From NCBI GenBank assembly GCA_016176465.1, contig JACOXD010000004.1, forward strand, positions 114,119-178,118: 64,000 bases of DNA. Reading direction: 5' to 3'. The notes beneath the pieces are model-generated. The model had not been told where the DNA came from. It ran no database searches and was given only the letters and a program-made list of their open reading frames with translations. Source of the DNA: Candidatus Daviesbacteria bacterium. Lineage in GTDB: Bacteria; Patescibacteriota; Microgenomatia; Daviesbacterales; UBA10151. Position 1 is the stretch's first letter; every line of letters starts with the position of its first letter. The translations under genes and the position numbers were made by a program. Of this stretch, positions 1,247-50,477 are shown piece after piece.

Positions 1247-1924
1247 TTAACGGATAGAAGAAATTATTCTCTCAACTTGGGAAGATAAATCTTCCCTGCT
1301 TGAAGCTGGAGCATTATTGTTGGAAACGCGGTGGGAAATAATTAAACCCTTACTACCTATATTTAAACACCATTGATAATTTGTAAGGTATTGATTCCCA
1401 GAAATACTGACATTAGTTTGAGTCAATTTAATTACCTGGTGTTTTCCCAGCTGGACAGTTTCACCCTGACAGTTGGTAGTATTTCCTACTATAACTGTAA
1501 TCGGTTTTATAGCTCTATCACAAACAATTCTTTGGGAAGATAAGTTTACTGGATCAAATTCAAAGTTAGATGAATTAGAGCAAGCTACAGTTCCCCAATT
1601 TTGTTGGTAACTTAACGAAAACCCATCTCCGGTATAAATCTTAACTTGGGTTAAGGATGGGCTGGGCGATGGAGTTTGAGAGGGACGAGGGCTCACTCGT
1701 ACTATTGGGGTTGGACGAGGGGTTGGACTGGGAGAAGGAGTTTGATTGAGGAATTGGCTTGTGGGGGATGGGGTCGCGCTAAATCTAGGCACCTCTGCGT
1801 TTTCAGATATATTATTTCTAAAAGATTGAGTTAAATAATAAATTGTTCCAGCAAGTATTCCTAGGATTAAAATAATTATTATCCCTGCAACAATAAGCCC
1901 CCTTTTTGCCTCCATAGTTTTCAT
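1247..1924 (-). CDS. Hypothetical membrane-anchored protein with a Pro/Ser/Thr-rich linker
   Basis: 225 aa with an N-terminal TM helix (GLIVAGIIIILILGILAG), then a PSPTSQ...TPSPSPTPRPTP...SQTPSPSPS low-complexity linker and a Cys-containing C-terminal domain. Confidence 0.45.
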   Translation of the reverse strand: MKTMEAKRGLIVAGIIIILILGILAGTIYYLTQSFRNNISENAEVPRFSATPSPTSQFLNQTPSPSPTPRPTPIVRVSPRPSQTPSPSPSLTQVKIYTGDGFSLSYQQNWGTVACSNSSNFEFDPVNLSSQRIVCDRAIKPITVIVGNTTNCQGETVQLGKHQVIKLTQTNVSISGNQYLTNYQWCLNIGSKGLIISHRVSNNNAPASSREDLSSQVERIISSIR

Positions 1925-5448: not shown

Positions 5449-6597
5449 ATGAAACTACTTCATTTTTCTGATATTCACATTGGTATGGAAAATTATGCAA
5501 AGCTAGACCCTCAAACTGGACTATCTACTAGATTACTTGATTTTTTTAAAACTTTTGATTTTATAGTGGAAACTGCTTTTGAAAAAGAAGTTGATGCGGT
5601 AGTTTTTGCAGGAGATGCTTATAAAACTAGGGACCCAAATCCAACTCAACAACGAGGCTTTGGAGAGAGAATTAGAAAATTGGCTAAAAAAATTCCAGTT
5701 GTTTTAGTGGTAGGAAACCATGACACTCCAAATGCAGAGGGTAAAGCAAATACTTTAGATATTTACTCCGCTTTGGAAATAGATAATGTCTGGGTTTCAA
5801 GAGTTCCAGAGCTTCTAGAGATTCCAACAAAATCTGGAAATTTACAGATTGTTACTCTTCCTTGGCTTCACAAAAATGATTACAAAACTATTGGAGAAAA
5901 ATTACGTTTACTCTATGATAAAATTCAAAAAAACTCCCCTGCCATATTTTTATCACATGCTGAGGTAATTGGAGCTGAATATGGAAGTGAAAAAGGAATG
6001 ACTATTGCAAATGATGTAACAATTCCTTTGTCAATTTTGCAGGAAAAAAAGCTATCTTATGTCGCACTCGGACACATCCACAAACACCAAGTTTTATCTA
6101 AAGACCCATTAGTTGTATATGCAGGTTCTCCTCATAGGATTGATTTTGGTGAGGAAAAAGAAGAAAAAGGAATTTGTTTGGTTACCATCGATGATGTCAT
6201 TCCCGCGGAAGCGGGAATCCAAAAAAATAGATCCCCGATCAAGTCGGGGATGACATTCCCCGCCACATTCCAATTTACTAAAACTCCTTGTCGAGAGTTT
6301 CTCACCATCATTGTCAATCTAAAAGGGTCTGACCCTAACCCAACTCAAACTATTTTAAATGAGATTGGCAAACAAACTATTAATGAAAAAGTTGTAAAAG
6401 TAATTATTAATATTCCGGCAGAAATATCTGGTGAAATTGAAATGGATAAAATTAAAAAGGCTTTAAACGCTGCACACTACATTGCAGGAATCTCAAGAAA
6501 TGTTGAGAGAAAAGAAAGGATAATTATTGAAACAAAAGGAGTTGAAACTCTTTCTCCAATCCAGGCTTTAGGCAAAAAAATTTACTCCTCTTCATAA
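5449..6597 (+). CDS. sbcD: SbcD/Mre11-family nuclease. It carries an in-frame GC-rich hairpin-element insertion at about 6195-6270.
   Basis: MKLLHFSDIHIG, VVFAGDAYKTRDP, VVLVVGNHDTP and GHIHKHQ are calcineurin-like phosphoesterase motifs typical of SbcD. The segment IPAEAGIQKNRSPIKSGMTFPATFQ is encoded by two GC-rich inverted repeats. Confidence 0.75.
   Translation: MKLLHFSDIHIGMENYAKLDPQTGLSTRLLDFFKTFDFIVETAFEKEVDAVVFAGDAYKTRDPNPTQQRGFGERIRKLAKKIPVVLVVGNHDTPNAEGKANTLDIYSALEIDNVWVSRVPELLEIPTKSGNLQIVTLPWLHKNDYKTIGEKLRLLYDKIQKNSPAIFLSHAEVIGAEYGSEKGMTIANDVTIPLSILQEKKLSYVALGHIHKHQVLSKDPLVVYAGSPHRIDFGEEKEEKGICLVTIDDVIPAEAGIQKNRSPIKSGMTFPATFQFTKTPCREFLTIIVNLKGSDPNPTQTILNEIGKQTINEKVVKVIINIPAEISGEIEMDKIKKALNAAHYIAGISRNVERKERIIIETKGVETLSPIQALGKKIYSSS
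6195..6270. repeat. Pair of GC-rich hairpins (TCATTCCCGC-GGAA-GCGGGAATC and ATCCCCGA-TCAAG-TCGGGGATGAC) inserted in frame in sbcD
   Basis: Perfect inverted repeats of 8-9 bp. The same two hairpins, in the same relative order and in the same orientation with respect to the coding strand, occur at 7075-7176 inside the RT gene. A related ATTCCCG...CGGGAATGACA hairpin is at 26298-26345 in murB. Confidence 0.6.
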
Positions 6598-6628
6598 GAA
6601 AAAATTAGAAGAATATGCTGCAAAGTTA

Positions 6629-7441
6629 CTAGAAAATTAACTTTTGCCTTAATTTAAAACTGTTTGCATGACTTAAATAACCTAAATAAGATTGAAGTGG
6701 CCGATTAAAATTCTCTGATCCTAATTCTTTTAATTTTCTAAAAATTCTTCTTTTTGTTTCTGTTCTAGGCAATCTATAGTGGAGCAAAACAATATATCCT
6801 AAAAAATCAATTCCCCAATCAAGCTTTCTTAGTACAATTTTTTTAGGATGCAACTCAAGTTTTAGATGATCTTTTAGGAATTCACTGATCTGATCTATTA
6901 ATTTAGTATGATAGACTAGTCTATTAGAACTTAATAAAATTAAAAAATCATCAGCATATCTTAAATAATACTTAACTTTTAATTTGTGCTTGATAAATTG
7001 ATCTAACTCATTCATGTAAATATTAGCAAAGATTTGGGAAGTTAAATTACCTAGAGGAATACCCTTACATCCTTTGTCATCCCCGACCCATTTCGCCGAA
7101 GCGGGAGCGAGGCGAGCCTGATCGGGGATCCATGAATATTGTCTGTTTATTATATTCCCGCTTCTGCGGGAATGACATGTACAGAAACTGCTAATTACTT
7201 GTTTTAGTAACCAGGTAATACTCTCATTTGGATCATTAACATAAAAAGAAAAATAATCTCCGTGTCTGTATGTTTTACTCTTTAACATTTCATAAAGACT
7301 AAAAAGATTGTCCTCTAAGTTTCTTTCAAAAGCTTGAATATCAGCTCGTTTCTTTTTTCCTTTTCTAAACTCATTCCATGCTTGAAACAAATTATCTATC
7401 ACACTGCCTGATTTTAGCCTTGACATACCAATTTTTACCAA
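6629..7441 (-). CDS. Reverse transcriptase (group II intron-like or retron-like, 270 aa). The fingers region is replaced by GC-rich hairpin-element sequence, so it is probably inactive.
   Basis: An RT0-like N-terminus (DNLFQAWNEFRKGKKKRADIQAFERNLEDNLFSLYEMLKSKTYRHGDYFSFYVNDP) is followed by RT motifs: GIPLGNLTSQIFANIYMNELD (motifs 3-4), YLRYADDFLIL (motif 5, YADD) and GIDFLGYIV (motif 7). The expected K.R.I...DR...HA block is absent. Two GC-rich palindromes (7075-7132, 7153-7176) occupy that position. Confidence 0.7.
   Translation of the reverse strand: MVKIGMSRLKSGSVIDNLFQAWNEFRKGKKKRADIQAFERNLEDNLFSLYEMLKSKTYRHGDYFSFYVNDPNESITWLLKQVISSFCTCHSRRSGNIINRQYSWIPDQARLAPASAKWVGDDKGCKGIPLGNLTSQIFANIYMNELDQFIKHKLKVKYYLRYADDFLILLSSNRLVYHTKLIDQISEFLKDHLKLELHPKKIVLRKLDWGIDFLGYIVLLHYRLPRTETKRRIFRKLKELGSENFNRPLQSYLGYLSHANSFKLRQKLIF
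7075..7176. repeat. Pair of GC-rich hairpins (TGTCATCCCCGAC...GATCGGGGATCC and ATTCCCGC-TTCT-GCGGGAATGACA) inside the RT ORF
   Basis: See 6195-6270. This copy is the reverse complement of the sbcD copy, with a larger loop (CGCCGAAGCGGGAGCGAGGCGAG) in the first hairpin. Confidence 0.6.
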
Positions 7442-7553
7442 ACTTTATGATTTTTACAAAAATTTAAGTCAGGCAGTTACTACTTTTCCCAAAACTAAAC
7501 GTTATAGGGTATTTGTCAACATTTTACTTCCAAGCTATACTACAAAAACTTAA

Positions 7554-7982
7554 ATGGAAAAAAAGAAATTAAAAAAAGCTGTGATTTTTATTTTTTTAAA
7601 AGATAGAAAAGTCTTAGTAGAAAAGCGGATAAGAGATGCAGAAAAAATATTGAAAAATCAACTTATTTTTCCAGGAGGAGGTTTGGAAGAAAAAGATTTC
7701 GATGATCTAGAAGTTGCGCTGAAACGAGAGATTTTTGAAGAACTCGGAGTATCCGCTTCGAAATTTTCACAATTAGCAAAAGGGTTGAAAATTATTAGTG
7801 CCGGTAAAGATGCCAGTTTACATCCATTTATTATTGAAGCTTGGGAAAATGAAATTCCTGAAAAAATTTTAGATAAAGATGTTCCTCTTTTTTGGGTGGA
7901 TATAGAAGTTATGCTAGAATCCAAAATTGCTCCAACTAAAAAAATAGCAGAATTGGTAAAAGACTATTTAGAAAATGTATGA
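7554..7982 (+). CDS. NUDIX hydrolase
   Basis: A Nudix box FPGGGLEEKDFDDLEVALKREIFEELGV (GGx5Ex7REuxEExGu). A 4-nt overlap (ATGA) couples it to the sbcC start. Confidence 0.65.
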   Translation: MEKKKLKKAVIFIFLKDRKVLVEKRIRDAEKILKNQLIFPGGGLEEKDFDDLEVALKREIFEELGVSASKFSQLAKGLKIISAGKDASLHPFIIEAWENEIPEKILDKDVPLFWVDIEVMLESKIAPTKKIAELVKDYLENV

Positions 7983-10179
7983 TTCCTGTTTTACTGAAAC
8001 TATCTAATTTTACAAGCTATGGAGAAAAAGCGCCTGAATTAAATTTTACAAAATTTAAGCTCGCTGCAATTTCCGGTCCTAATGGTGCTGGTAAATCTTC
8101 ACTTCTTGATGCAATAACATGGTGTCTTTGGGGAACCTCAAGAGCTGGGGACTCATCAGATGAGTTGGTTAGGCTAGGGAGCGATAAAATGTTTGTGCAG
8201 TTTAGTTTTGAACTTGACGGAAATCTTTATACTGTTAAAAGAGCAAGATCTAAAAAAAGCGGTGGAAATACTAGCTTAGAGGTTTGGTCTGGAACAGAGA
8301 AAAAGCCAGAAACACACAATTTAACAGAAGGGACAATTAAAGCGAGCCAGCAAAAAATAATTGATACGCTACACTTAAGTTTTGAAACTTTTACCAACTC
8401 CTCTTTTTTGCGACAGGGTCATGCTGATGAGTTTACTACCAAAGGTCCAACAGATAGAAAAAGAATCTTAGCTAAGAAAAAATAAAAGAAGCGGAGATTA
8501 AATTAACACTTTTGGACTATCAACTTCTGGAAATAGAAGCAGAGCTTTCTTTAAAAAAAGATCGGGAAAAAAATTTTAGTCAAATCCAAAACGAGGTAAA
8601 TTCAGCTAAAAAAGGGGTTTTAGAGATCGAAAGTTTAATAAAAACAATTGAGGAGGAAAAACAATCTATACAGGTAAAGGTCAGTACCTTACTTGAATCC
8701 AAAAAACGCTTTGAGGATTTAAACAAAGAGATTGAGGATTTAAAACTGCAAATTAAGTTAAAGGAAAATACGAAGGAGGAATACCAGCTAATTTTAGATC
8801 AAAAGCAAGTTATTGAGAAAAATTATCAAATGTTACAGAAGTTACAAGAGAAGAAAAAAACTTTGGATAACAAAAGATCACATTTAATAAAACTTAAAGA
8901 TGAGTTGGTTTTGATAGAAAAACAAATTAATGAAAGAGAGGACAAAAGGAAACAAACTATTGCCCATTTAGAAATAGAAGGTAAGGAATTTGAAACAAAA
9001 AATGAACAATTAAAACTTCAAAATGAAAAACTAAGTAAAGAAAAAACCCTATGCCCTACTTGTAATCAACCTATTAGCGGAGAAAAAAACAGGGAAATAA
9101 TTTTAAATAATAAAAAACAAATTGAAGAAAATAACGAAAAACTAAAGGATTTAAGGCAAAAAATTGAAAAATATAAAGTGGTTATTTTGCCAGAATATCA
9201 ACTGGCCAAGGGAAAAGATATGGAGGTTAAAAAATTAGAAGAGGAAACTAAAGAATATTTTGAAACAACCAAAACCCTTTTAGAATTAGATAAGTACTCC
9301 CAAGCATATATGAAACTACAGCAAGCAGAAGTTGCTGTTAAAACCCACCAAGAAACTCTAATTGATTTAGAGAAAATATATAAGATAAAAAGTAAGGATT
9401 TAGAAAAATCCCAAAACTTTAAGGAAAACCTGGATAAGTTTTCAAAGACGTTAGAGGAAATTGAGGAAAAATTAGAAGGCAAGATGGAAGTTAAAAAAGA
9501 ACTCTCCCAAAAGGTTTTAGATCTCTCAGGAAGAGCTGGTGAAGCAAAACAATTAATAGATAGAACCATCCAAATAGAAAATTTATTCAACTTGAAAAAG
9601 AAAGAGAAAAATAAATTAACTAAAGAAAAAGAAATATTTGAGGAGTTAAGCTTAGCTTTTGGTAAAAGAGGCATTCAGGCAATGATTATTGAGGCAGCTA
9701 TTCCAGAAATTGAGGATGAAGCAAATAGGCTACTTAATAAATTAACTGAAGGCAGGATGAAGGTTCGCTTTGAAACTCAAAAAGAAACAAAAACTAAAGT
9801 TCAAACTAGTGAGGGAAAAGTTCATGCTTTAGTTGAGACTTTAGATATCATCATCTCAGATGAAATGGGTGAGAGAAATTATGATCTATATTCAGGAGGA
9901 GAAACTTTTCGGGTCAATTTTGCAATAAGATTGGCAATCTCCAAATTATTAACTCATCGAGCTGGAGCAAAGTTACAATTTTTAATTATTGATGAAGGAT
10001 TTGGTACTCAAGATGCAACAGGTAGAGCAAGATTAATAGAAGTAATTGATGCTATTAAAGATGATTTTGAGAAAATTTTAATTATTACTCATCTTGAGGA
10101 GTTAAAAGACGAGTTTCCGGTAAGAATTGAGGTTTCAAAAGATGCTTCAGGATCCACTTTTGAAATGGTCGGCGCTTAA
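7979..10179 (+). CDS. sbcC: SbcC/Rad50-family ATPase, split into two ORFs (7979..8485 and 8512..10179) by a -1 frame break at an A-run (8477-8485)
   Basis: N-terminal ORF: Walker A GPNGAGKSSLLDAITWCL. C-terminal ORF: a long coiled coil, a zinc-hook CPTC, the ABC signature LSGGETFRVNFAIRLA, and Walker B/D-loop LIIDEGFGTQD. A -1 shift after AAA (8480-8482) reads ...RILAKKK-IKEAEIKLTLLDYQLL..., which fuses both parts collinearly. The second ORF otherwise starts at TTG. Confidence 0.7.
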
Positions 10180-25704: not shown

Positions 25705-26847
25705 ATGAATGGCTTAGATAGCAAATTCAAAGAAAAAATTGTTAAAGATTTACCCTTTTCAAATCTAACAACCTTAAAAATTGGTGGACCTATCAAGTAT
25801 TTTTTTGAAGCTAAAACTGAGGATGAGTTAATAGAAGCTGTTAAATTTGCTCAAAAAAATTCTCTTCCCTATTTAGTAATTGGTGGCGGATCTAATCTTT
25901 TGGTATCTGATAAAGGATATGATGGACTAGTTATAAAAAATTCCATAACTGGAATAGCGAGGGGTGACAGCGAGGAGAGGTCTTGGCGCGTACCCGCAGC
26001 GATCAGGCAACGACCTGAGAGTGAGGATACACGACGAGAAACCGAGCTGGCAGGACCCGGAGCAATTTTGAAGGTAAAAGGCGGGACTGTTTTACAAGAT
26101 TTAGTGGATTATTCTATAAAAAATGGTTTATCTGGTTTACAAAAGATGACTGGGATCCCAGGAACTATAGCTGGGGCAGTTTATGGAAATGCAGGTGCTT
26201 ACGGCCAAACTATTTCTGACCATATAGTAAAGGTGACCATTCTAAAACCAACAACAGGGTCATCTTTCAACTTAATTGGAGGATCCAGTCAGATAGATTC
26301 CCGCTGGAGTTTACCCCGTACCTCGATACGGGACGGGAATGACAATACTGAAATTAAGACCCTAACCAAAGACGCATGTGGATTTGATTACCGCCATAGT
26401 TCCTTTAAAGAAAACAAATCCATTATTTTAGAAGTAATTTTTGAGCTGGAACAGGGAAATCCTAAAACTTTAAAGAAAGAATCTGAAGAAATTTTAGAAA
26501 AAAGATTAGTTAAATATCCAAAAGGAATTAAATGTCCTGGTAGTTTTTTTATGAATATAGTTACTGAAAATTTGCCAAAGGATGTTTTAGAAAAAATTCC
26601 CCAAAATATGATTATGTATGGAAAAATCCCTGCAGGAGCACTTTTAGAAGAAGTTGGAGCAAAAGGAGATTCAATTGATGGAATAGAAATAGCTCCTTAT
26701 CATGCTAATTTATTTGTTAATAAAGGTGGTGGTAAGGCTGAAGATTTTTACAATTTAGCTAAAAAATATTTTCAAAAAGTTAAAGAAAAATTTGGAATTA
26801 CCCTTGAACCAGAAGTCCAATTAATTAATTTACCAGCCTTAAATTAA
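25705..26847 (+). CDS. murB: UDP-N-acetylenolpyruvoylglucosamine reductase MurB, with in-frame insertions
   Basis: An FAD-binding N-terminus (LTTLKIGGPIKYFFEAKTEDELIEAVKFAQKNSLPYLVIGGGSNLL) and a MurB C-terminal domain. A GC-rich segment of about 105 nt at 25955-26063 (ARGDSEERSWRVPAAIRQRPESEDTRRETELAGPG) interrupts conserved blocks, and it is homologous to an insert in tsaD. Confidence 0.75.
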   Translation: MNGLDSKFKEKIVKDLPFSNLTTLKIGGPIKYFFEAKTEDELIEAVKFAQKNSLPYLVIGGGSNLLVSDKGYDGLVIKNSITGIARGDSEERSWRVPAAIRQRPESEDTRRETELAGPGAILKVKGGTVLQDLVDYSIKNGLSGLQKMTGIPGTIAGAVYGNAGAYGQTISDHIVKVTILKPTTGSSFNLIGGSSQIDSRWSLPRTSIRDGNDNTEIKTLTKDACGFDYRHSSFKENKSIILEVIFELEQGNPKTLKKESEEILEKRLVKYPKGIKCPGSFFMNIVTENLPKDVLEKIPQNMIMYGKIPAGALLEEVGAKGDSIDGIEIAPYHANLFVNKGGGKAEDFYNLAKKYFQKVKEKFGITLEPEVQLINLPALN

Positions 26848-26909: not shown

Positions 26910-27311
26910 TTAAAAATAATCAACTTCTCTTTTAGCCTGGAAGTGGGTACCATTTTTACTATTGCGAACTTTTTGTACGATTAACCAATAAGTTTTAAAA
27001 GTATTAGGATCATCTAATTTTGGCCGAGCATAGCCTGCTACTAAAATTGCTTGTTTTATCTTTAAATCTAGATTTTCTAATACGCTAAGTTGAAGTGGAC
27101 ACCCAGCTGAATGCCCAATCAAAACAGTCTCAGGAGTGTAGGTTTCTTTTAAAGCAACAGGCAGCCATTTTTTAATACCTGGGTGATTTGCATCAGGCAA
27201 TTGTGGGAGAGAAACGCTATAACCTCTTTTTTCTAATTCTTTAGTTAGCCATGGAAACCAAAAAGAATCCTTTGTCTCCCCAGTTCCATGTAGTATAACA
27301 ACATTTTTCAT
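26910..27311 (-). CDS. Small alpha/beta hydrolase (YdeN/RBBP9-like serine hydrolase)
   Basis: VVILHGTGE near the N-terminus, a GHSAGC nucleophile elbow (GxSxG), and a short alpha/beta-hydrolase fold of 133 aa. Confidence 0.5.
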   Translation of the reverse strand: MKNVVILHGTGETKDSFWFPWLTKELEKRGYSVSLPQLPDANHPGIKKWLPVALKETYTPETVLIGHSAGCPLQLSVLENLDLKIKQAILVAGYARPKLDDPNTFKTYWLIVQKVRNSKNGTHFQAKREVDYF

Positions 27312-34232: not shown

Positions 34233-35396
34233 ATGAATAAATTTAAATTAATTTTAGGGATTGAGACATCTTGTGATGAAACAGCAGCTGCAATACTAAA
34301 AAAGGATGAAGGTCAGATTACTATTTTATCTAATATTGTTGCCTCTTCAGCTAAATTACAAGAAAAATATGGAGGAATTATTCCAGAACAGGCTGCTAGA
34401 GAACAGATTAAAGCTATCATTCCTGTTATTACTGAAGCGCTTAAAAAGGCACGAGTAACAAGTGATAAGTTAGATGCCATAGCAGTTACCCAAGGACCTG
34501 GTTTAATAGGTTCCTTGCTAGTAGGGGTCGAAACAGCTAAAGTTTTAAGTTTAATTTGGGAAAAACCTTTAATTCCTATAAATCATTTATTAGGACATTT
34601 TTATGCAAATTGGATAGCGACGGAGGGTGACAGGGAGGAGAGATCTCGGCGCACCCCCGCAGCGAAGTTGTTACGAGACGAGGAGGTACGACGAGAAACC
34701 GAGCTGGCAGGACCCCCAAGCGTACCAGAGTTCCCCTATCTTGGACTTTTAGTCTCTGGTGGCCATACAGATTTAGTTTTATTTAAAAATCACAATGAAT
34801 ATGACTACCTAGGTGGAACAAGGGATGATGCAGCTGGTGAATGCTTTGATAAATGCGCCAGGTTACTGGGATTTCCCTATCCTGGTGGACCAAAGATTTC
34901 TAAACTGGCAGAGAATGGAAATCCCAAGGCTTTTAAATTCCCAAGACCTATGGAAAAATCTAATGATTTTGATTTTTCTTTTTCCGGCTTAAAGACTTCT
35001 TTTGCTAATTTAGTTAATAGTTCAGAGTTTAAAGTTCAGAGTAAAAAATCAATAAGCTACAAACTCAAAGCGAAGCGTACTCATAACTTAGTCTCTGACT
35101 TAGCTGCATCTTTGGAACAAGCCATTATTGATTCACTCATTACTAAAACCATTAAAGCTGCTCAAAAATATAACATTAAACAAATCATTATTGCAGGAGG
35201 AGTTGCTGCTAATAAAAAACTAATTTCAGAGTTACAATTAGCTATTAACAATGAACTATTAACTATTAAACTCTTTGTTCCTCCACCCTATCTTTGTACA
35301 GATAACGCTGCAATGATTGCCTCCCGTGCTTTTTTTGAAAAAGAGATTAAAGATCCTATATCTTTACAAGCAGATCCAAATTTATCCTTAGCTTGA
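34233..35396 (+). CDS. tsaD: tRNA N6-adenosine threonylcarbamoyltransferase TsaD (Kae1/Gcp family), with a 35-aa in-frame insertion
   Basis: LGIETSCDETAAAI, the HLLGH metal-binding motif, and LVSGGHT. A GC-rich segment at 34612-34722 (ATEGDREERSRRTPAAKLLRDEEVRRETELAGPP) lies between the two conserved motifs and is homologous to the murB insert. Confidence 0.8.
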   Translation: MNKFKLILGIETSCDETAAAILKKDEGQITILSNIVASSAKLQEKYGGIIPEQAAREQIKAIIPVITEALKKARVTSDKLDAIAVTQGPGLIGSLLVGVETAKVLSLIWEKPLIPINHLLGHFYANWIATEGDREERSRRTPAAKLLRDEEVRRETELAGPPSVPEFPYLGLLVSGGHTDLVLFKNHNEYDYLGGTRDDAAGECFDKCARLLGFPYPGGPKISKLAENGNPKAFKFPRPMEKSNDFDFSFSGLKTSFANLVNSSEFKVQSKKSISYKLKAKRTHNLVSDLAASLEQAIIDSLITKTIKAAQKYNIKQIIIAGGVAANKKLISELQLAINNELLTIKLFVPPPYLCTDNAAMIASRAFFEKEIKDPISLQADPNLSLA

Positions 35397-36302: not shown

Positions 36303-38550
36303 AACTCAAAATACTGAGGAAAAATGGTACAAGTTTTGGGAAAATCAGGGACTTTTTAAAGCAGACCCTGATTCTTCCAAGCCTTCATATTCTATTTTAA
36401 TGCCTCCTCCTAATTTAACTGGTGAACCACACGCTGGGCACACAATCCAACATTTAATAATGGACGGCTTAGCCAGATTTAAAAGAATGCAAGGATTTGA
36501 TGTTTTATTTCAACCCGGTGTTGATCATGCAGGGATTCAATTTGAAGGAACTTTAAATAAGTTATTAGAAAAAGAAGGTTTAAGGAAGATAAGTTTGGGT
36601 AGAGAGAAATGGATGGAAAGAGCCTGGCAATTTAAAGGTGAGATTTATAAGTCTTTCCATAAAACCTGGAGAGCTATGGGGATTTCAGCTGACTGGAAAA
36701 GAGAAGTTTTTACTCTAGATCCTAAAATGCAGCGAGCTGTTTTAGAGGAATTTAAAACTTTTTGGGAACAAGATCTTTTATACAAAGGAGCATATATTGT
36801 CCAGTGGTGCCCTAAAGATGCTACTGCTATTGAGGATTTGGAAATGGAGTATGAGGAAAGGACTGAAAAGCTCTACTATGTTAAATATAAAGTAGCAGGA
36901 GACCCTAGATATCCTAACGAAGAATACATTGTGGTAGCTACTGCTCGTCCAGAAACAATTTACGCCGATGTCGCTATTGCTGTTCATCCTGAATCTAGAT
37001 ACAAAGATTATGCAGGAAGAGATGCTTATAAACCTCTCGCTCCTAGTGAAAAACTCGTAGATAGAGAGATTAAAATAATTACAGATGATAGGGTTAATAA
37101 AGAATTTGGAACAGGTGCTTTAAAAATAACTCCTGGCCATGATCCTCTAGATTATAAGATAGGCAAAGACCACAACTTATCTATCTTACATGCTGTTGAT
37201 AAAGCAGGAGGGATGACAGATTTGGCAGGCGATCTTAAAGGATTATCTGTTTCAGAAGCTCGAGAAAAAACAGCTGAGATGTTAGACAAACAAGGATCTA
37301 TTGACCACATTGAGGAATACACTCATTCAGTGCCAGTTTGTGAAAGGTGTAAATCTACTATTGAACCCTTAGTTTCCGAGGAATGGTTTGTAAAAATGAA
37401 GCCTCTTGCCCAAAAAGCCCTAAAATCCCTAAAGGATATCAACTTTTTTCCAAAGAATTTTGAAAAAGTAATTGCTGATTGGTTAGAAGAAATTCATGAC
37501 TGGTCAATTTCTAGGTCTTTGTGGTGGGGACACAGAATCCCTGTTTGGTATTGTCAAAAGTGTAATTCAAACCACGAAGTAGGAAAAGATAAAGATATGG
37601 TTATATCCTTGACTCACCCAGAGCAAAATTGCCAAACTTGTAAGCTAAATCAATGGGTCCAGGATGATCAGATTTTAGATACCTGGTTTTCATCAGGTCT
37701 TTGGCCCATGGCAACCTTAGGCTGGCCCTCCTCCGCTGAAGCTTCGGAGGGTAAACCAGACGAGTGGTTAAACATGAAGAAATATTACCCATATGATTTT
37801 GAAATATCTGCTCCAGAAATTAAATTTTTATGGATTGCTAGAATGATTATGCTGGGGGTTTGGTTTGCTCAGGATATTCCTTTTAAAAATATGTTTTTTA
37901 CAGGGACACTGCGAGACCTTCAAGGAAGAAAGTTTTCTAAGTCTTTAGGAAATGGGGTTTTTCCTTTGCCTTTAATTGATACTTGGGGAGTGGATGCTTA
38001 TAGAATGGCTATTTTTGGCTTTGCAGCTCCTGCAAGAGATGGAAGGGCAAGCAGACAAACTTTGGATGAAAGGTGTAAGAACTTTAGAAATTTTGTAACA
38101 AAGCTTAAAAACATTGCTAAGTTTATAGTTGATTTAAAACCAAAAGGAACGCAGTCATTAGATCCTTCCTCCTTAAAGGGACCCGCACTTCAGGATGACC
38201 AAACAGAGAATGTCATTCTGAGCGCCAGAGAAGAATCCAATCCAGAAGATATTGAAATTCTTGAGAAACTTAATAAAACAATTAAAAATGTAACAAAAGA
38301 ACTAAATAAGTTTAACTTTCATTTAGCCTCTGATTTTATTTATGAATTTATTTGGCATGAATTTGCAGATAAATATATTGAATCATCTAAAAATAGAAGA
38401 AAAGATGCTCAACCAGTTTTAGAATATATCTTTAAAACTTCTTTAGAGCTTCTTCATCCTTTCATGCCCTTTATTACGGAGGAAATTTGGCAAAGGCTCC
38501 CACATGCGGAAAAATCCATAATGATCGCCAAGTGGCATGAAGTTAAATAA
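36295..38550 (+). CDS. valS: Valyl-tRNA synthetase, short form (751 aa, no C-terminal coiled coil), carrying a hairpin-element insertion at 38161-38247
   Basis: The HIGH motif PPPNLTGEPHAGH, an editing domain, KMSKS KFSKSLGN, and an anticodon-binding domain. The segment SLDPSSLKGPALQDDQTENVILSAREESNPEDIE is encoded by the GC-rich bipartite element. Confidence 0.8.
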   Translation: MDKTQNTEEKWYKFWENQGLFKADPDSSKPSYSILMPPPNLTGEPHAGHTIQHLIMDGLARFKRMQGFDVLFQPGVDHAGIQFEGTLNKLLEKEGLRKISLGREKWMERAWQFKGEIYKSFHKTWRAMGISADWKREVFTLDPKMQRAVLEEFKTFWEQDLLYKGAYIVQWCPKDATAIEDLEMEYEERTEKLYYVKYKVAGDPRYPNEEYIVVATARPETIYADVAIAVHPESRYKDYAGRDAYKPLAPSEKLVDREIKIITDDRVNKEFGTGALKITPGHDPLDYKIGKDHNLSILHAVDKAGGMTDLAGDLKGLSVSEAREKTAEMLDKQGSIDHIEEYTHSVPVCERCKSTIEPLVSEEWFVKMKPLAQKALKSLKDINFFPKNFEKVIADWLEEIHDWSISRSLWWGHRIPVWYCQKCNSNHEVGKDKDMVISLTHPEQNCQTCKLNQWVQDDQILDTWFSSGLWPMATLGWPSSAEASEGKPDEWLNMKKYYPYDFEISAPEIKFLWIARMIMLGVWFAQDIPFKNMFFTGTLRDLQGRKFSKSLGNGVFPLPLIDTWGVDAYRMAIFGFAAPARDGRASRQTLDERCKNFRNFVTKLKNIAKFIVDLKPKGTQSLDPSSLKGPALQDDQTENVILSAREESNPEDIEILEKLNKTIKNVTKELNKFNFHLASDFIYEFIWHEFADKYIESSKNRRKDAQPVLEYIFKTSLELLHPFMPFITEEIWQRLPHAEKSIMIAKWHEVK
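38161..38247. repeat. Bipartite GC-rich hairpin element (Y+X modules) inserted in frame in valS
   Basis: GATCCTTCCTCCTTAAAGGGACCCGCACTTCAGGATGACCAAACA plus GAGAATGTCATTCTGAGCGCCAGAGAAGAATCC. These are homologous to 25603-25687 and inverted relative to 60745-60818. Confidence 0.6.
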
Positions 38551-39067
38551 TCTCCTTTTTATATTTAATCCTTTGCTTAAAAAGGTTTTCTCTAAACCCC
38601 CCTTCATTAATAAATTTTTTCTTTAAAGCTTCTATTTGTCTTGAGAGTAAAAAAGTTTCCATTTGGCAAAAAGTCAAAAGCATATTAGCTGCCTCTTCGG
38701 GATTATGAGGAAGATTTGGGGTGTTAGGAATATTAGGCTTAACCCAAACAGCCCTAAACTCCCTAAAAACTCTAATCCTAGGATCGCTCTTATCCCAAAT
38801 CCTTAAGTTCCTCTGTCTTAGGAAATCCTCAAAATCGGCTGTTAATTCTTTAAAAGATCCATGGGCAACACCACAAAGCTTTATATAACTTTCCAGGCTT
38901 TGCATAGTATATCCTTCAACTATGTTTTGCTTTCCAGACCTAGCTGCCTGCTCCATCTGATCAACAGTTCTGGACTTAGGGTTTATCCAGCGCGTTACAA
39001 ACTGAACAGTTAGATCATGAATAACAGTAGCTAGAATATATGTAGAGAGATTTTTGTACCCTTCCAC
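38543..39067 (-). CDS. Four-helix-bundle protein (TIGR02436-like, the family often found in 23S rRNA intervening sequences)
   Basis: MEQAARSGKQNIVEGYTMQSLESYIKLCGVAHGSFKEL matches the Q..RA..SI..NIAEG........F...A.GS..E core. Confidence 0.45.
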   Translation of the reverse strand: MEGYKNLSTYILATVIHDLTVQFVTRWINPKSRTVDQMEQAARSGKQNIVEGYTMQSLESYIKLCGVAHGSFKELTADFEDFLRQRNLRIWDKSDPRIRVFREFRAVWVKPNIPNTPNLPHNPEEAANMLLTFCQMETFLLSRQIEALKKKFINEGGFRENLFKQRIKYKKEII

Positions 39068-45073: not shown

Positions 45074-46334
45074 TTTTTAATTCTAGCATGCTAAAACCCC
45101 AGACTAAAAAGAACAATCTTTGACCTTGGGGAAGCGTTAAAAAATAATGGTCAAACATTCCCAAAATTAATATACTAAACCAAGTAAAAATTAAAACATT
45201 TTTTAAAAATACAGGCTTAATCTTTAAAAGTTTATAAAGAGGAAAAAATATTAAAATAGAAAATCCTAAAAAACCTACAATTCCAGTTTCTGCTAAGCTT
45301 AATAAGAAAATATTATGTACAGGTTGCAAAAAACGAGTTTGACCAGCTATTACCGAAGATGCCGACGTTGCATTAATAAAATTATTAAGTCCGATTCCAA
45401 ATATCGGGGAGTTAAAAAAATGAATTAGAGAAACTTCTGCTAATTGTTCTCTGCGGATTAATGAGATGTAATCAAAACTAAATGTAGAAAAAAACCTAGT
45501 AAATAAAAAGGGAGAGGCAAGGGCAAGTAGTATTAAAATCAAAAGTAATCTTTTTTTTCTGAAAAAGAGAATAATTTGTAAGAAAAAAATAGCTAGAGCG
45601 ATTCTTGAAAAAGTCAGTATGATAAGCAAAGCTCCAAGGACTTGAATAGAAAAATTTATTTTAGATTTAACCAATAAATTTATTATTGGCAAAGTAATTA
45701 CTAAAAAACCAGCAAAGACATTAGGATGAGGGAAAGTACCATATGGTCGCAAAAAAATCTGATCAAAGTAATTAAACTTTGCAATAGAGGGAGTTGATAG
45801 GTTAAATTCTCTCTCTCCTAATATCCAAAACCCTAAAGAGTGGGATAAAAAAAATTGCCCTAACCCTAAAAAACACTCAAGCAAAATGGAACTACTCAAA
45901 CCCAAGAAAAGATTTTTTTTAATATCTGATAGATTTTTACTTGCGATATAAATTCCTAAAAAGGATGCTAAAAATAGCTGCTCCAAACGAAATAAACTAG
46001 CTCCTAAATTACTGGTATTAAATAAAGATAAAACTTGCGTGAGAAGGAAAAAGAGAGTCAAAAGTAGCGCTTTAGAGTTAATTTTTGATTTATTTCTGGA
46101 AGAAACTATATTTAAAAGAAAACAAAATAGCAAACTTAAAATTAAAAGATCCCAAAAAAAGATTGTTGGGGATAGATAATCAATTTTTAAAGAATAAATA
46201 TAACTAAAATCAAACCAAAAGTGTCTGCCAAGCTGAGTGGGAAGAAAAAATATAATTAAAAAAAATAAATAGCTTTCTAATTTTGCAAAAAAATTAAGAT
46301 CCCTTGGAAGTAACTTTTTTAGAGGATTTTTCAT
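45021..46334 (-). CDS. O-antigen ligase-like (Wzy_C) polytopic membrane protein
   Basis: 437 aa with about 10-12 TM helices and a central loop containing the R...H-like Wzy_C pattern (RIALAIFF, FDHYFLTL). Confidence 0.45.
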   Translation of the reverse strand: MKNPLKKLLPRDLNFFAKLESYLFFLIIFFLPTQLGRHFWFDFSYIYSLKIDYLSPTIFFWDLLILSLLFCFLLNIVSSRNKSKINSKALLLTLFFLLTQVLSLFNTSNLGASLFRLEQLFLASFLGIYIASKNLSDIKKNLFLGLSSSILLECFLGLGQFFLSHSLGFWILGEREFNLSTPSIAKFNYFDQIFLRPYGTFPHPNVFAGFLVITLPIINLLVKSKINFSIQVLGALLIILTFSRIALAIFFLQIILFFRKKRLLLILILLALASPFLFTRFFSTFSFDYISLIRREQLAEVSLIHFFNSPIFGIGLNNFINATSASSVIAGQTRFLQPVHNIFLLSLAETGIVGFLGFSILIFFPLYKLLKIKPVFLKNVLIFTWFSILILGMFDHYFLTLPQGQRLFFLVWGFSMLELKSGNFKKSISANKLPNTG

Positions 46335-46839
46335 TTACTTTTTCCCCTGGGGCAGGCTTAATAATTATATGACGGTTAATCCCTTCACCTAAACTTTCTG
46401 ATTCTACACCTTCAGTGCCAGAAATTGTTAGATGAATTACTCTTCTTTCCCAAGCAGGCATTGGTTCAAGCTCCATTTGCTCACTTGTTTCTATCACTTT
46501 TTGCGCCCAAGCTCTAGCCTTATGAGCTAAATCTTCCTCTCTTGATTTTCTCCAATTAGAAACATCAATGACCACTTTTTTAAATTCTTCTCCTTCTTTG
46601 AGGGATTTTGCTAAAATTTGATTAACTATTAGCTGAAGGGCAGATAAAGTCTCTCCATGCCTGCCTATTAATTTACCAGCATCGATAATCTCAATAGAGG
46701 CAGCTATATAATCGGCGCTTTCTTCAACCTCAAATGAACCCTCAAGCGAGAGTAAACCTAATATATTTTCTAAAATCTCAGAAACTTTATTTTCGTAGAA
46801 AACCTTATTCTCCATGAGAACCTCCTTTTCCATTAACAC
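46294..46839 (-). CDS. jag: Jag/KhpB-like RNA-binding protein (KH + R3H domains)
   Basis: Conserved position immediately downstream of yidC. KH-like IAASIEIIDAGKLIGRHGETLSALQLI and R3H-like LEPMPAWERRVIH. Confidence 0.6.
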   Translation of the reverse strand: MLMEKEVLMENKVFYENKVSEILENILGLLSLEGSFEVEESADYIAASIEIIDAGKLIGRHGETLSALQLIVNQILAKSLKEGEEFKKVVIDVSNWRKSREEDLAHKARAWAQKVIETSEQMELEPMPAWERRVIHLTISGTEGVESESLGEGINRHIIIKPAPGEKVNEKSSKKVTSKGS

Positions 46840-47665
46840 CCCTTAATCTATTAATAATCCCATCCATTCCACCCCATCCTGAAAGTAGGTACTGTTGGAT
46901 TATGCCGATTAATGTAAACATATTCCAGTAAACAGAAAGGCCGGTCGGGAATTGCCAGGAGAAAAAACCAATCATAACCGGCATCATATAAACCATTTGC
47001 CCCTGGATAGCACTCATAGCATCCTCAGCTTTCTCTTTCTCTTTCATCTCTTTAGGTAAATCTGAAGGATATTTTTTAACAGGCTTTGGCATAATCATTT
47101 TTGATTGAATAAAGGTCAATACCGCTGTTAAGAGTGGGATCAAAAGCAAGAGGTAACCGTGTTGGACAAACTCAGCAGGCTTATAAGTTAGGTTGATCCC
47201 TAAAAAATTAGGATCAGGGGGGGAAGATAACTTCATGACAGGAAAATATAGCATTTCGTTAATTTGTTTTAAACCACTCGGACCGGAAAAAAAAGCAAAA
47301 ATCGCCTGATAAAGCGCGATTAGAATTGGAAACTGAATTAAAGTAGGCAGACACCCAGCAGCAGGATTGACCCCATGTTCTTTATATAACTGCATTTGGG
47401 CTTTGGCAAAAGCTTGTTTATCCCCTGCATGCTTTTTTTTAAGCTCATCCATATGAGGCTTTAAATCAGCCATTTTTTTAGCAGATTTTAATTGCCGAGA
47501 AATTGCCGGCCAAGTAACTAGCCTTATAAGTAAAGTTAAAATAATAATGGAAAATCCTAACGCTCCTGGGATTCCCAGGTATTGAAGTGTATTGATTAAA
47601 AATACCAACAAGTTAATTAAGGGAGCTAAAAAAACAGTATTGAATAAATCAAAAATTACCTGCAC
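46805..47665 (-). CDS. yidC: Membrane protein insertase YidC (short, Gram-positive/CPR type)
   Basis: The YidC/Oxa1 60-kDa-IMP core (GVNPAAGCLPTLIQFPILIALYQAI..., WQFPTGLSVYW). The order rpmH-rnpA-yidD-yidC-jag is conserved. Confidence 0.8.
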   Translation of the reverse strand: MQVIFDLFNTVFLAPLINLLVFLINTLQYLGIPGALGFSIIILTLLIRLVTWPAISRQLKSAKKMADLKPHMDELKKKHAGDKQAFAKAQMQLYKEHGVNPAAGCLPTLIQFPILIALYQAIFAFFSGPSGLKQINEMLYFPVMKLSSPPDPNFLGINLTYKPAEFVQHGYLLLLIPLLTAVLTFIQSKMIMPKPVKKYPSDLPKEMKEKEKAEDAMSAIQGQMVYMMPVMIGFFSWQFPTGLSVYWNMFTLIGIIQQYLLSGWGGMDGIINRLRGVNGKGGSHGE

Positions 47666-47874
47666 GAAATTATCCTCCTTAATCCTAAATAAACTCCTCT
47701 AATGCTGCCATACTCAGCAATCATTTGCTTTGTATACTGCGAACAAGTTGGGTAATTTCGACAACTTCCTCCCGGAGCAAAGTAAGATAAAACACCATGA
47801 TCAAATGAAAGGAATTTTTGGTAAAAATCAATTAGGGATAATAATATCTTGGACATTTTGTAAATCTTTAGCAA
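47656..47874 (-). CDS. yidD: Membrane protein insertion efficiency factor YidD
   Basis: CRNYPTCSQY...RCHP-like Cys motif (CRxxPTCSxY) in a 72-aa protein, in the conserved position. Confidence 0.7.
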   Translation of the reverse strand: MLKIYKMSKILLSLIDFYQKFLSFDHGVLSYFAPGGSCRNYPTCSQYTKQMIAEYGSIRGVYLGLRRIISCR

Positions 47875-48163
47875 CCAAAGTAGGATTTGCTTTTAAAATA
47901 TTGACTTTAGGCATGATAACTAAATTCAAATTTTTAATCAATAGCGGATAAGTTAGGTCAGTAGCGCTGAAAGCTAATCTTTTAGCCTTGTTTCGCTGTG
48001 TTGATTTAGGAAAGTATATTTTAGAAAGGGCAATTCCAATTAAGGGATTTTCATTTTCTCCGAGTCTAAAATTAAGTTTTAAATATTTTGTTTCTTTTTT
48101 ATCTCCTTTGGCTACCCACTTAAAACTTTTTGATAAATTTAGCCTTTTATTTTTAGGAAGCAT
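47828..48163 (-). CDS. rnpA: RNase P protein component RnpA
   Basis: A basic 111-aa protein with a KNKRLNLSKSFK RNR-like motif, located between rpmH and yidD. Confidence 0.7.
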   Translation of the reverse strand: MLPKNKRLNLSKSFKWVAKGDKKETKYLKLNFRLGENENPLIGIALSKIYFPKSTQRNKAKRLAFSATDLTYPLLIKNLNLVIMPKVNILKANPTLVAKDLQNVQDIIIPN

Positions 48164-48173
48164 AGGAAAAAGT

Positions 48174-48314
48174 TTAGATTGTTAAACGATGAGCACCTTT
48201 TAACCGTCTTCGTTTCAAAATTAACTGTCCGGTTTTAGAAGACATTCGAGCCCTAAATCCATGTTTTTTTTGGCGCTTAGCTTTTTTAGGCTGGTAGGTA
48301 CGTTTAGTAGACAT
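48174..48314 (-). CDS. rpmH: Ribosomal protein L34
   Basis: [46 protein letters not shown] is near-consensus L34. The longer track ORF (to 48401) is a spurious 5' extension through oriC sequence. Confidence 0.85.
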
Positions 48315-48401
48315 GGGGACAAGTATACTATACTTACCCGGGATACGAAATATGTAATATGAAATATGTTTACTTATTGTGTCTCGTATTCCGTATCTCA
48401 T

Positions 48402-48488
48402 ATCACATATCCCAAAAATATATTTGATCCATTAATTAATAGTTTCTCTCTCTTTACCTGTTGATAACTTATCCACTAATATAGCTTC
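48402..48488. promoter_or_regulatory. rpmH-dnaA intergenic region with DnaA-box-like 9-mers (oriC part 1 / dnaA promoter)
   Basis: TTATCCACT at about 48466-48474, and TTGATAAC (the complement, TTATCAACA-like) at about 48457-48465. An adjacent AT-rich repeat tract (ATACGAAATATG / ATATGAAATATG) lies at 48330-48400. Confidence 0.45.
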
Positions 48489-49820: not shown

Positions 49821-50002
49821 ATATCCACATTTCCCCTTTAGTTATCCACATACTTTTCCACAATTTTAAAGTATTTTTCAACACGAAAAAAGTTCGAAAT
49901 CTATTCTTAAATTGCTTGGTTTTTAAACTTATGCACATGCTCTATAATAGCTATTACTAATTTGAATATATTATATTTATCTAGAAATAAGTGGACAACT
50001 AA
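49821..50002. promoter_or_regulatory. oriC DnaA-box cluster with an AT-rich unwinding region, between dnaA and dnaN
   Basis: ATATCCACA (49821-49829), TTATCCACA (49842-49850), TTTTCCACA (about 49854-49862), TTATGCACA (about 49928-49936), and an inverted TTGTCCACT (about 49989-49998). These are interspersed with AT tracts (TTTTAAAGTATTTTT, TATAATAGCTATTACTAATTTGAATATATTATATTTAT). Confidence 0.65.
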
Positions 50003-50461
50003 ATGGAAATAAATTGGGTTGTTATTTTATTTATTGTACTTGGGTTGATAATTGCTTATTTAATCGGCAGACTGCAAGCAAAACCAAAATCAAGCGATAT
50101 TCCACAAGATTTCATAGATTTGTATAAACAAGTTGAAGGACTACCTTTAAGAGTTTTACAAACCATTCAAGGCTCAATTAATCCCCAGAAAGGAAAAATG
50201 GCAGAGCTTTTAACCTATGCAGAGCTTAGATATGATTATGATCGGATCATTCCGCTAGGTTGGCCAATTGATTTTATTGGAATTAAAAATAATGAGCGGA
50301 TTGATTTTATAGAAGTTAAATCAGGAAACTTTGCACTCTTGACAGATGAGGAAAAACACATTAAAAACCTTATAGTTAAAGGATCTGTTCATTTTAGATT
50401 AATTAAAGTAACAGAAGAAGAAATTTCTAAATTTATTTCTGCCCAAAAGGAAGGAAATTGA
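50003..50461 (+). CDS. Membrane-anchored PD-(D/E)xK nuclease-fold protein (YraN/Hjc-like), inserted between dnaA and dnaN
   Basis: An N-terminal TM helix (WVVILFIVLGLIIAYLIG). The pattern GKMAELLTYAELRYDYDRIIPLGWPIDFIGIKNNERIDFIEVKSG matches the E...(x)GEiDlia....e..fVEVK.R arrangement of YraN (UPF0102) and Hjc nucleases. Confidence 0.45.
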   Translation: MEINWVVILFIVLGLIIAYLIGRLQAKPKSSDIPQDFIDLYKQVEGLPLRVLQTIQGSINPQKGKMAELLTYAELRYDYDRIIPLGWPIDFIGIKNNERIDFIEVKSGNFALLTDEEKHIKNLIVKGSVHFRLIKVTEEEISKFISAQKEGN

Positions 50462-50477
50462 CAGTAATCAATTAACA

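What the first reader, a model, noticed from the sequence alone, without database searches (positions are those of the whole stretch)
8474..8490. sbcC broken at G_AAA_AAA_TAA_AAG, restored by a -1 shift
The Walker-A head (7979..8485) and the coiled-coil, zinc-hook and signature-motif body (8512..10179) are collinear SbcC. A -1 slip of tRNA-Lys from AAA(8480-8482) to AAA(8479-8481), with a UAA stop in the A site, yields ...RILAKKKIKEAEIKLTLLDYQLL... without gaps. This is either a homopolymer sequencing error, a pseudogene, or recoding.
Basis: seen in the sequence. Interest (0 to 1): 0.55.

Follow-up and report, generated by a model that had tools for sequence, protein, structure and literature searches.

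The report
sbcC broken by a 46-base deletion
The DNA-repair gene sbcC of this uncultured Daviesbacteria genome is split because about 46 bases, coding for 15 strictly conserved amino acids, are missing, and its partner sbcD carries a similar 14-base out-of-frame deletion, so this is an ordinary decaying gene pair and not programmed frameshifting.

Summary
The two collinear SbcC pieces exist as described: 7979..8485, and 8476/8512..10179 in the -1 frame. Both frames are open only in 8476..8485, which holds an A6 run. The claim that a -1 slip restores the protein "without gaps" is wrong. All 117 full-length orthologous proteins and all 81 orthologous loci encode one uninterrupted SbcC. They all carry 15 residues (A-DILGLDHYDKLEEK) between RKRIL and AKEK that this window lacks. 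One contiguous 46-nt deletion at 8473|8474 explains both the missing block and the frame change. The A6 run is ordinary ancestral Glu-Lys-Ile coding sequence.

The partner gene sbcD has the same kind of lesion. A 14-nt deletion at 6570|6571 puts its conserved C-terminal helix (6572..6640) out of frame. A dead retroelement reverse transcriptase lies between the two genes. About 60 other ORFs in the window show no split.

There is no significant downstream RNA structure and no ortholog shares the break. Best reading: recent pseudogenisation of sbcCD by small deletions (about 0.7). An assembly artefact or minority allele cannot be excluded without reads (about 0.2). Recoding is very unlikely. Interest is low.

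The parts
7979..8485 (+). sbcC 5' fragment (168 aa): Walker A 8075..8101, Q-loop 8411..8422. Ends at TAA 8483..8485, a stop created by the frame change.
   Evidence: NCBI annotates it separately as a 168-aa 'SMC family ATPase' (P0143).
8473..8474 (+). Inferred junction of a single 46-nt deletion: GCT[GAT ... GAA AAA GCT A]AA GAA AAA ATA. It removes the codons for DILGLDHYDKLEEKA plus one base.
   Evidence: Ortholog protein alignments. Codon comparison with L001 and L002. Lys is AAA in 79% of codons here, so the single-event model is the likelier one.
8477..8482 (+). It is ancestral coding sequence (G)AA AAA A(TA) = Glu-Lys-Ile in the downstream frame.
   Evidence: Compare L002 GAA AAG ATA and P0006 AKEKIKEAQIKL.
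8476..10179 (+). sbcC 3' part (coiled coil, CPTC zinc hook 9052..9063, signature YSGGE 9889..9903, Walker B 9979..10005, H-loop 10084..10095). Open from 8476, first start codon TTG 8512. NCBI calls only 8830..10179 (449 aa).
   Evidence: (P0015).
5449..6597 (+). sbcD as it now reads (382 aa). Intact metallophosphoesterase body; the tail ...ALGKKIYSSS* is out of frame.
6570..6571 (+). Inferred junction of a 14-nt deletion in sbcD: GCT TTA [AAR AAA TAT TTT GA]G GCA AAA AAA TTT. It removes 'KKYFE' and shifts the frame. An A7 run (6574..6580) follows.
   Evidence: tblastn of ortholog C-termini (E = 1.4e-5). Sequence. Alignment with about 60 SbcD orthologs, all carrying AL[KR]KYFE[AS]KK.
6572..6640 (+). 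Stranded, out-of-frame sbcD C-terminus AKKFTPLHKKKLEEYAAKLLEN*. This is the second helix of the helix-loop-helix that anchors Mre11/SbcD on the Rad50/SbcC coiled coil.
   Evidence: Role of the helix-loop-helix from PMC3258140.
6629..7441 (-). Remnant of a diversity-generating-retroelement (DGR) type reverse transcriptase. It keeps GNLTSQIFAN and YADD but lacks about 108 aa of the core and carries a piece of the hairpin element.
   Evidence: Pfam RVT_1 positions 114-205 of 205 only, against the intact 327-aa homolog in L031 covering 8-205 beside a bAvd-like gene.
7554..7982 (+). NUDIX hydrolase gene, apparently intact. Its stop overlaps the sbcC start (ATGA). It is a normal member of the operon in some lineages.
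   Evidence: Pfam. The same gene lies between sbcD and sbcC in at least 10 other loci.

Best explanation
sbcC here is a recently inactivated gene. One deletion of about 46 bases at 8473|8474 removed the codons for 15 conserved residues at the root of the SbcC coiled coil, plus one extra base. Translation from 7979 therefore runs into TAA at 8483, and the rest of the gene sits in the -1 frame. The A6 run is simply the next few ancestral codons (Glu-Lys-Ile) and plays no part.

The partner nuclease gene sbcD was hit in the same way by a 14-base deletion at 6570|6571 that strands its C-terminal SbcC-anchoring helix out of frame. Together with a dead retroelement RT between them, the locus looks like an SbcCD system that is no longer under selection and is eroding by small deletions.

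Shown: the missing blocks, the frame relations, their absence from all relatives, and the intactness of the other genes in the window. Inferred: that each lesion was one event, that the lesions are real in the genome, and that the proteins are non-functional.
For: 1. All 117 full-length orthologs are single proteins of about 742 aa and all carry the 15 residues missing here. That gap is the only place where the joined product lacks residues present in more than 90% of orthologs.
2. All 81 orthologous loci have sbcC in one frame, and 79 show the IL.DILGL..Y motif, out to Chloroflexota at 31-38% identity.
3. The block aligns with the conserved 'KLLGIDEFEKCYQKM' helix of archaeal Rad50 structures 5f3w and 3aux.
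4. The codon comparison fits a contiguous 46-nt loss, given that the Lys codon is AAA in 79% of cases here.
5. sbcD has a second out-of-frame deletion. Its conserved tail is found in the +1 frame (tblastn E = 1.4e-5), and every one of about 60 orthologs has KKYFE where the window has nothing.
6. In both genes the frame change lies within 10 nt of the missing block, which argues for one event per gene.
7. About 60 other ORFs in the 64-kb window have full-length family matches and none is split. Two random lesions falling one in each of these two genes would have a chance of about 0.2% (own estimate from the gene lengths).
8. The RT between the genes is also degraded.
9. No programmed-frameshift features were found.
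Against: Apart from the deleted block, only 2 of 176 near-invariant SbcC columns differ (T to S, E to D), which is within the normal ortholog range. All catalytic motifs are intact. The inactivation must therefore be very recent, or the lesions are not fixed or not real.

No reads were available. The only independent assembly fragment of this organism (Logan contig L082) is identical to the window but stops at 8455, 18 nt short of the junction, so the junction is unconfirmed.

The ancestral sequence is inferred from relatives that are at most 67% identical. Whether each lesion was one event (46 nt, 14 nt) or two (45+1, 15-1) cannot be proven.
Confidence: 0.7

Rival explanations
1. Assembly or curation artefact, or a minority allele. 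The real dominant genome has intact sbcC and sbcD, and the two small deletions entered the consensus during metagenome assembly, bubble resolution or scaffold polishing.
For: The gene bodies are otherwise perfectly conserved. The sequence is a metagenome-assembled genome with no close relative in public data: the best hit is 67% identical, and a scan of metagenome contigs gave 0 hits. The independent Logan contig ends 18 nt before the junction, which could reflect a branch in the assembly graph.
Against: Short-read assemblers do not normally create 14- and 46-nt deletions in unique sequence. No long repeat flanks either site. No other gene in 64 kb is affected, yet both subunits of one complex are. 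The Logan contigs of this organism are short overall, so a break near the junction may be chance, about 4% by own estimate.
Confidence: 0.2
2. Simple homopolymer sequencing error (A7 read as A6) in an otherwise normal gene.
For: Adding one A to 8477..8482 restores a single ORF. sbcD could likewise be rejoined by removing one A from its A7 run.
Against: The rejoined proteins would still lack 15 and 5 residues that every ortholog has. The A7 model puts Lys where orthologs have Glu or Asp. About 315 other A/T runs of 6 or more in the window show no frameshift. This reading would also need an independent in-frame deletion to sit within 10 nt of an error, twice.
Confidence: 0.04
3. Recoding or rescue. 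A -1 ribosomal slip of tRNA-Lys at AAA_AAA_UAA, or insertion of an A by RNA polymerase, yields some full-length SbcC. A +1 or A-deletion event at the A7 run does the same for SbcD.
For: A runs lie in the frame-overlap window of both genes (8477..8482 and 6574..6580). A stop in the A site and Lys codons are known slip-prone contexts (general knowledge; review PMC5009743, listed).
Against: The break is not conserved in any of 81 loci. G_AAA_AAA is not a full slippery heptamer. The downstream fold is no better than shuffles (z = -0.28). Transcriptional slippage rises exponentially with run length, and no reading-frame rescue was seen even in Buchnera (PMC5574713); A6 and A7 are short runs. The products would lack conserved segments. 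A runs are common here.
Confidence: 0.03
4. Functional split gene. The 168-aa Walker-A lobe and a separately initiated 555-aa remainder (TTG 8512) reassemble non-covalently.
For: Rad50 N- and C-terminal ATPase halves were crystallised as separate chains (1f2t_A and 1f2t_B, 1ii8). All motifs are intact.
Against: No relative is split. The coiled-coil root is shortened on one strand only, so the register is lost. sbcD's anchoring helix is also out of frame. Shine-Dalgarno analysis cannot help because most genes here lack such a motif.
Confidence: 0.03

Closest known systems
Bacterial pseudogenes formed by small out-of-frame deletions (deletional bias in reduced genomes; general knowledge, see also PMC3164680 listed)
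   Same: Short deletions whose length is not a multiple of three. The gene body is otherwise preserved. Several lesions cluster in functionally linked genes. The host is a small, AT-rich genome.
   Different: Nothing substantive. The only open point is that the lesions are unverified at read level.
SbcCD / Mre11-Rad50 nuclease complex (E. coli SbcC 6s6v; archaeal Rad50 5f3w and 3aux; T. maritima complex, PMC3258140)
   Same: The ancestral genes are clear orthologs. SbcC has Walker A, Q-loop, CxxC zinc hook, signature motif, Walker B and H-loop. SbcD has a full metallophosphoesterase domain and a C-terminal helix-loop-helix.
   Different: Here SbcC is interrupted and lacks the first 15 residues of the coiled-coil root. 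SbcD lacks 5 residues of helix 1 and has helix 2 out of frame. Both lesions lie in or next to the interface that holds the two proteins together (PMC3258140).
Programmed -1 frameshifting on A_AAA_AAG / A_AAA_AAA (dnaX, IS elements; PMC5009743)
   Same: Lys AAA codons at the frame junction, with a stop codon next.
   Different: Only six A's preceded by G. No stimulatory structure. No conservation. The product would not be a normal protein.
Rescue of frameshifted genes by polymerase slippage at poly(A) tracts in insect endosymbionts (PMC5574713; PMC3017870 listed)
   Same: AT-rich reduced genome, with an A run at the frame junction.
   Different: The endosymbiont tracts are long and the indel lies inside the tract. 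Here the runs are 6-7 nt and the lesion is a 46- or 14-nt deletion beside them.

Membership tests
SbcC/Rad50 ATPase (ancestral gene identity) | N-terminal Walker A lobe and C-terminal signature/Walker B lobe, separated by a coiled coil with a CxxC zinc hook | tested here: met
   Pfam AAA_23 1.9e-23 and SbcC_Walker_B 2.6e-7. CPTC, YSGGE and FLIIDEGFG located. 55-67% identity to 117 full-length orthologs. PDB Rad50 and SbcC hits.
SbcC/Rad50 ATPase (intact, functional member) | One uninterrupted reading frame including the conserved IL.DILGL..Y helix at the coiled-coil root | tested here: not met
   Frame break at 8476..8485. 15 residues absent that 117 of 117 proteins and the readable loci retain.
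Programmed ribosomal -1 frameshift site | Slippery heptamer X_XXY_YYZ in the zero frame | tested here: not met
   The sequence is G_AAA_AAA_TAA. Only a single P-site slip is perfect; tandem re-pairing would mismatch at G8476.
Programmed ribosomal -1 frameshift site | Downstream stimulatory RNA structure or upstream Shine-Dalgarno-like stimulator | tested here: not met
   Fold of 8483..8560 gives -9.5 kcal/mol, z = -0.28, with 75 of 200 shuffles as good. No GGAGG in 8455..8476.
Programmed ribosomal -1 frameshift site | Site and two-frame arrangement conserved among orthologs | tested here: not met
   0 of 81 loci and 0 of 117 proteins.
Programmed ribosomal -1 frameshift site | Trans-frame product detected | not testable with these tools
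   No proteomic or ribosome-profiling data for this uncultured organism.
Pseudogene by deletion | Loss of sequence relative to all orthologs, with length not a multiple of three | tested here: met
   45 nt of codons plus 1 nt in sbcC. 14 nt in sbcD.
Pseudogene by deletion | Relaxed constraint visible as excess substitutions or further lesions | tested here: inconclusive
   No excess substitutions (2 of 176 near-invariant columns). However, there is a second lesion in the partner gene and a degraded RT at the locus.
Pseudogene by deletion | Lesion present in the organism's DNA (read support) | not testable with these tools
   No reads. The Logan contig L082 stops at 8455. No other same-organism fragment was found.

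The most novel reading that the evidence does not exclude
Both subunit genes carry trimmed interface segments (SbcC coiled-coil root, SbcD anchoring helix), and in both the frame junction sits on an A run. Small amounts of a matched, shortened SbcCD complex might then be made by slippage (-1 at A6 in sbcC, +1 or A-loss at A7 in sbcD). That would be a slippage-throttled nuclease in an organism whose genes are peppered with hairpin elements.
Probability: 0.02. Interest if true: 0.5.

Novelty: already known. Interest (0 to 1): 0.1.

Why it matters
It matters little beyond annotation. It shows that this Daviesbacteria population has probably just lost the SbcCD hairpin/double-strand-break nuclease. 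Both sbcC fragments, now annotated as a 168-aa 'SMC family ATPase' and a 449-aa 'hypothetical protein', and sbcD should be labelled pseudogenes.

It is also a useful caution for scans. A stop beside an A run that a -1 shift 'repairs' can hide a larger deletion, which only an ortholog alignment reveals.

If the loss is real, it adds one data point on DNA-repair erosion in ultra-small bacteria of the Candidate Phyla Radiation (CPR). There is a speculative link to tolerance of the palindromic insert elements seen in this genome.

Tried and rejected
- **Exact-product look-ups.** The 168-aa, 449-aa, 555-aa, 382-aa (sbcD) and 140-aa products are not on record. Only the NUDIX product led to an independent contig (L082), and that contig stops before the junction.
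- **Metagenome scan.** A scan of metagenome contigs for a 29-mer just upstream of the junction gave 0 hits. The source genome is also not among the species-representative genomes.
- **Further protein searches.** Two searches aimed at same-organism fragments crossing the junction found only the NCBI fragments P0143 and P0015, plus partial proteins of other species that keep ILADILGL.
- **Ribosome-binding-site test for TTG 8512.** Rejected as uninformative. Only 5 of 28 well-supported gene starts have any GGAG/GAGG/AGGA motif upstream.
- **sbcD insert as a third decay lesion.** I first read the 19-aa insert in sbcD this way. Rejected, because many intact orthologs carry different inserts in the same loop.
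- **RT/NUDIX block truncating sbcD.** Rejected. The old sbcD stop (6638..6640) is still there, and NUDIX between sbcD and sbcC is a common arrangement.
- **VirB4-like pair 57501..58271 / 55716..57497.** It looked like an in-frame stop, but it is a normal gene boundary with its own ATG.
- **Repeats.** No long direct repeats flank either deletion that could explain an assembler collapse.

Full report
**What is in the sequence.** The window is AT-rich (34.6% G+C) and comes from an uncultured Candidatus Daviesbacteria genome of the Candidate Phyla Radiation (CPR). Two NCBI proteins from one 191-kb contig are 100% identical to parts of the locus: P0143, a 168-aa 'SMC family ATPase', and P0015, a 449-aa 'hypothetical protein HYS91_01495'.

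ORF 7979..8485 encodes the Walker-A lobe of SbcC (Pfam AAA_23, 1.9e-23) and ends ...GCT AAG AAA AAA TAA. The -1 frame opens at 8476, just after a TAA at 8473..8475, and runs to 10179. It carries the coiled coil, the CPTC zinc hook, YSGGE, Walker B and the H-loop.

**Why it is not a one-base problem.** A search of the large protein collection gave 905 relatives. The best 120 are 48-67% identical, and apart from P0015 they are single proteins of about 720-750 aa.

In alignments with 58 and then 117 of them, the joined product has exactly one gap where more than 90% of orthologs have residues. Fifteen residues, consensus ADILGLDHYDKLEEK, are missing between RKRIL and AKEK. Ile, Leu, Leu and Glu in that block are invariant in 117 of 117.

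In 81 orthologous loci, including Chloroflexota at 31-38% identity, sbcC is in one frame. The IL.DILGL..Y motif was found in 79 of them. Of the other two, L059 has a run of N at that point and L070 did not match the pattern used. The block aligns with 'KLLGIDEFEKCYQKM' of Methanocaldococcus Rad50 structures, the helix that starts the coiled coil.

At DNA level the window reads GCT|AAG AAA AAA TAA AAG AAG CGG. L002 reads GCA GAT ATT ... GAA AAA GCC AAG GAA AAG ATA AAA GAA GCC. If the ancestral Lys codon was AAA (79% of Lys codons here), one contiguous 46-nt deletion, GCT[GAT...GCT A]AA GAA AAA ATA AAA GAA GCG, reproduces the observed sequence exactly. That includes the stop in each frame.

The A6 run is therefore the ancestral Glu-Lys-Ile coding sequence (compare P0006, AKEKIKEAQIKL), not the lesion. 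The slip or A7 model would put Lys at a position where orthologs have Glu (101) or Asp (9).

**A second lesion in the partner gene.** In relatives sbcD lies just upstream of sbcC, either adjacent (L001, L002) or separated by a NUDIX gene (at least 10 loci). The window's sbcD ORF (5449..6597) ends ...ALGKKIYSSS*, whereas orthologs continue for about 20 more residues.

tblastn finds that tail, AKKFTPLHKKKLEEYAAKLLEN*, in the +1 frame at 6572..6640 (E = 1.4e-5). About 60 SbcD orthologs all read AL[KR]KYFE[AS]KK[YF].P there, and the window lacks KKYFE. One 14-nt deletion, GCT TTA [AAR AAA TAT TTT GA]G GCA AAA AAA TTT, gives the observed sequence.

[quoted passage not shown] So both subunits are hit by out-of-frame deletions, in or next to the element that holds them together. 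In each gene the frame change lies within 10 nt of the missing block, which argues for one event per gene and against a real in-frame deletion plus a separate homopolymer error.

**Context.** Between sbcD and NUDIX lies a reverse transcriptase ORF on the minus strand (6629..7441). It keeps GNLTSQIFAN and YADD but matches only positions 114-205 of the 205-position RVT_1 model. Its homolog in L031 is 327 aa, covers positions 8-205, and sits beside a bAvd-like gene and a candidate target gene, which is the layout of a diversity-generating retroelement (DGR). L014 has the same neighbours. The window's copy is a remnant.

The other roughly 60 ORFs of the window give full-length family matches, and no adjacent pair is a split gene. 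One suspicious same-frame pair is a normal gene boundary. The assembly is therefore not generally indel-prone. By my own estimate from gene lengths, two random lesions falling one each in sbcD and sbcC would have a chance of roughly 0.2%.

**Tests of the recoding idea.**
- No relative shares the break.
- G_AAA_AAA is not a full slippery heptamer.
- The 78 nt downstream fold no better than shuffles (z = -0.28).
- A runs of 6 or more occur every 147 nt in this Lys-rich gene.
- Transcriptional slippage rises exponentially with run length, and no frame rescue was seen even in Buchnera (PMC5574713).
- Any rescued product would still lack conserved residues.
- Shine-Dalgarno reasoning about re-initiation at TTG 8512 is uninformative, because most genes here have no such motif.

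**What keeps the verdict from being firmer.** Outside the deleted block, the SbcC sequence deviates at only 2 of 176 near-invariant columns, both conservative, and all motifs are intact. The event is therefore very recent, not fixed, or not real.

I could not see reads. The only independent assembly fragment of this organism is Logan contig L082 from SRR12113424. It is identical to 7535..8455 and stops 18 nt before the junction. That may be low coverage or a graph branch. No other same-organism fragment was retrievable.

**Verdict.**
- Recent pseudogenisation of sbcCD by small deletions: about 0.7.
- Artefact or minority allele: about 0.2.
- Simple homopolymer error, recoding, and functional split gene: a few percent each.

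This is a known, ordinary kind of event and interest is low.

Noticed in passing
window 6196..6252 (+) and 7153..7175 (-): A 57-nt double-hairpin element (GTCATTCCCGCGGAAGCGGGAATCCAAAAAAATAGATCCCCGATCAAGTCGGGGATG) is inserted in frame in sbcD and adds 19 aa. Part of it recurs in the RT remnant. The same SbcD loop carries different inserts of up to about 40 aa in many intact orthologs (L003, L027, L012, L018, L020, L025), so it is an insertion hot spot that tolerates translated repeat elements.
   Followed up: partly
window 6629..7441 (-); L031 1501..3889; L014 1..2230: The window holds the remnant of a DGR-type reverse transcriptase between sbcD and NUDIX. Relatives have an intact RT, a bAvd-like gene and a candidate variable target gene right next to sbcC, which suggests a recurrent retroelement site beside sbcCD in Daviesbacteria.
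   Followed up: partly
window 7554..7982 (+): A NUDIX hydrolase gene lies between sbcD and sbcC, and its stop overlaps the sbcC start (ATGA). The same three-gene order occurs in at least 10 other Daviesbacteria loci, so it is a conserved sbcD-nudix-sbcC operon variant of unknown meaning.
   Followed up: partly
L082 (= window 7535..8455): An independent Logan assembly contig of the same organism (SRR12113424) is 100% identical to the window but ends 18 nt upstream of the sbcC deletion junction. This could be chance low coverage or a sign of allele polymorphism there.
   Followed up: partly
window 25962..26002 and 34625..34665 (+): A G+C-rich 41-nt repeat (85% identical) lies inside murB and tsaD. 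Both proteins are longer than usual and have their Pfam domain matches split into two stretches. These look like further in-frame insert elements in housekeeping genes.
   Followed up: no
window, gene starts (e.g. 5449, 13406, 32775): Only 5 of 28 well-supported starts have any GGAG/GAGG/AGGA motif upstream. Several have a TATAAT-like box a few bases before the ATG, which hints at widespread leaderless or Shine-Dalgarno-independent initiation.
   Followed up: no
L042 about 1300..1450: In another Daviesbacteria genome (JACPEZ010000003.1), sbcD is interrupted at the insert hot spot. About 38 residues are missing and the frame changes, so sbcD decay or assembly trouble is not unique to this window.
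   Followed up: partly
window 46294..51587: This is a replication-origin type neighbourhood: jag/khpB, yidC, yidD and rnpA on the minus strand, then dnaA (48489..49820), a Holliday-junction-resolvase-like ORF and dnaN (50478..51587).
   Followed up: no
window 26910..27311 (-) and 38543..39067 (-): A 133-aa Ser_hydrolase ORF covers only positions 1-103 of the 172-position family model and may be truncated. A 174-aa ORF gives a sub-threshold match to the 23S_rRNA_IVP four-helix-bundle family.
   Followed up: no
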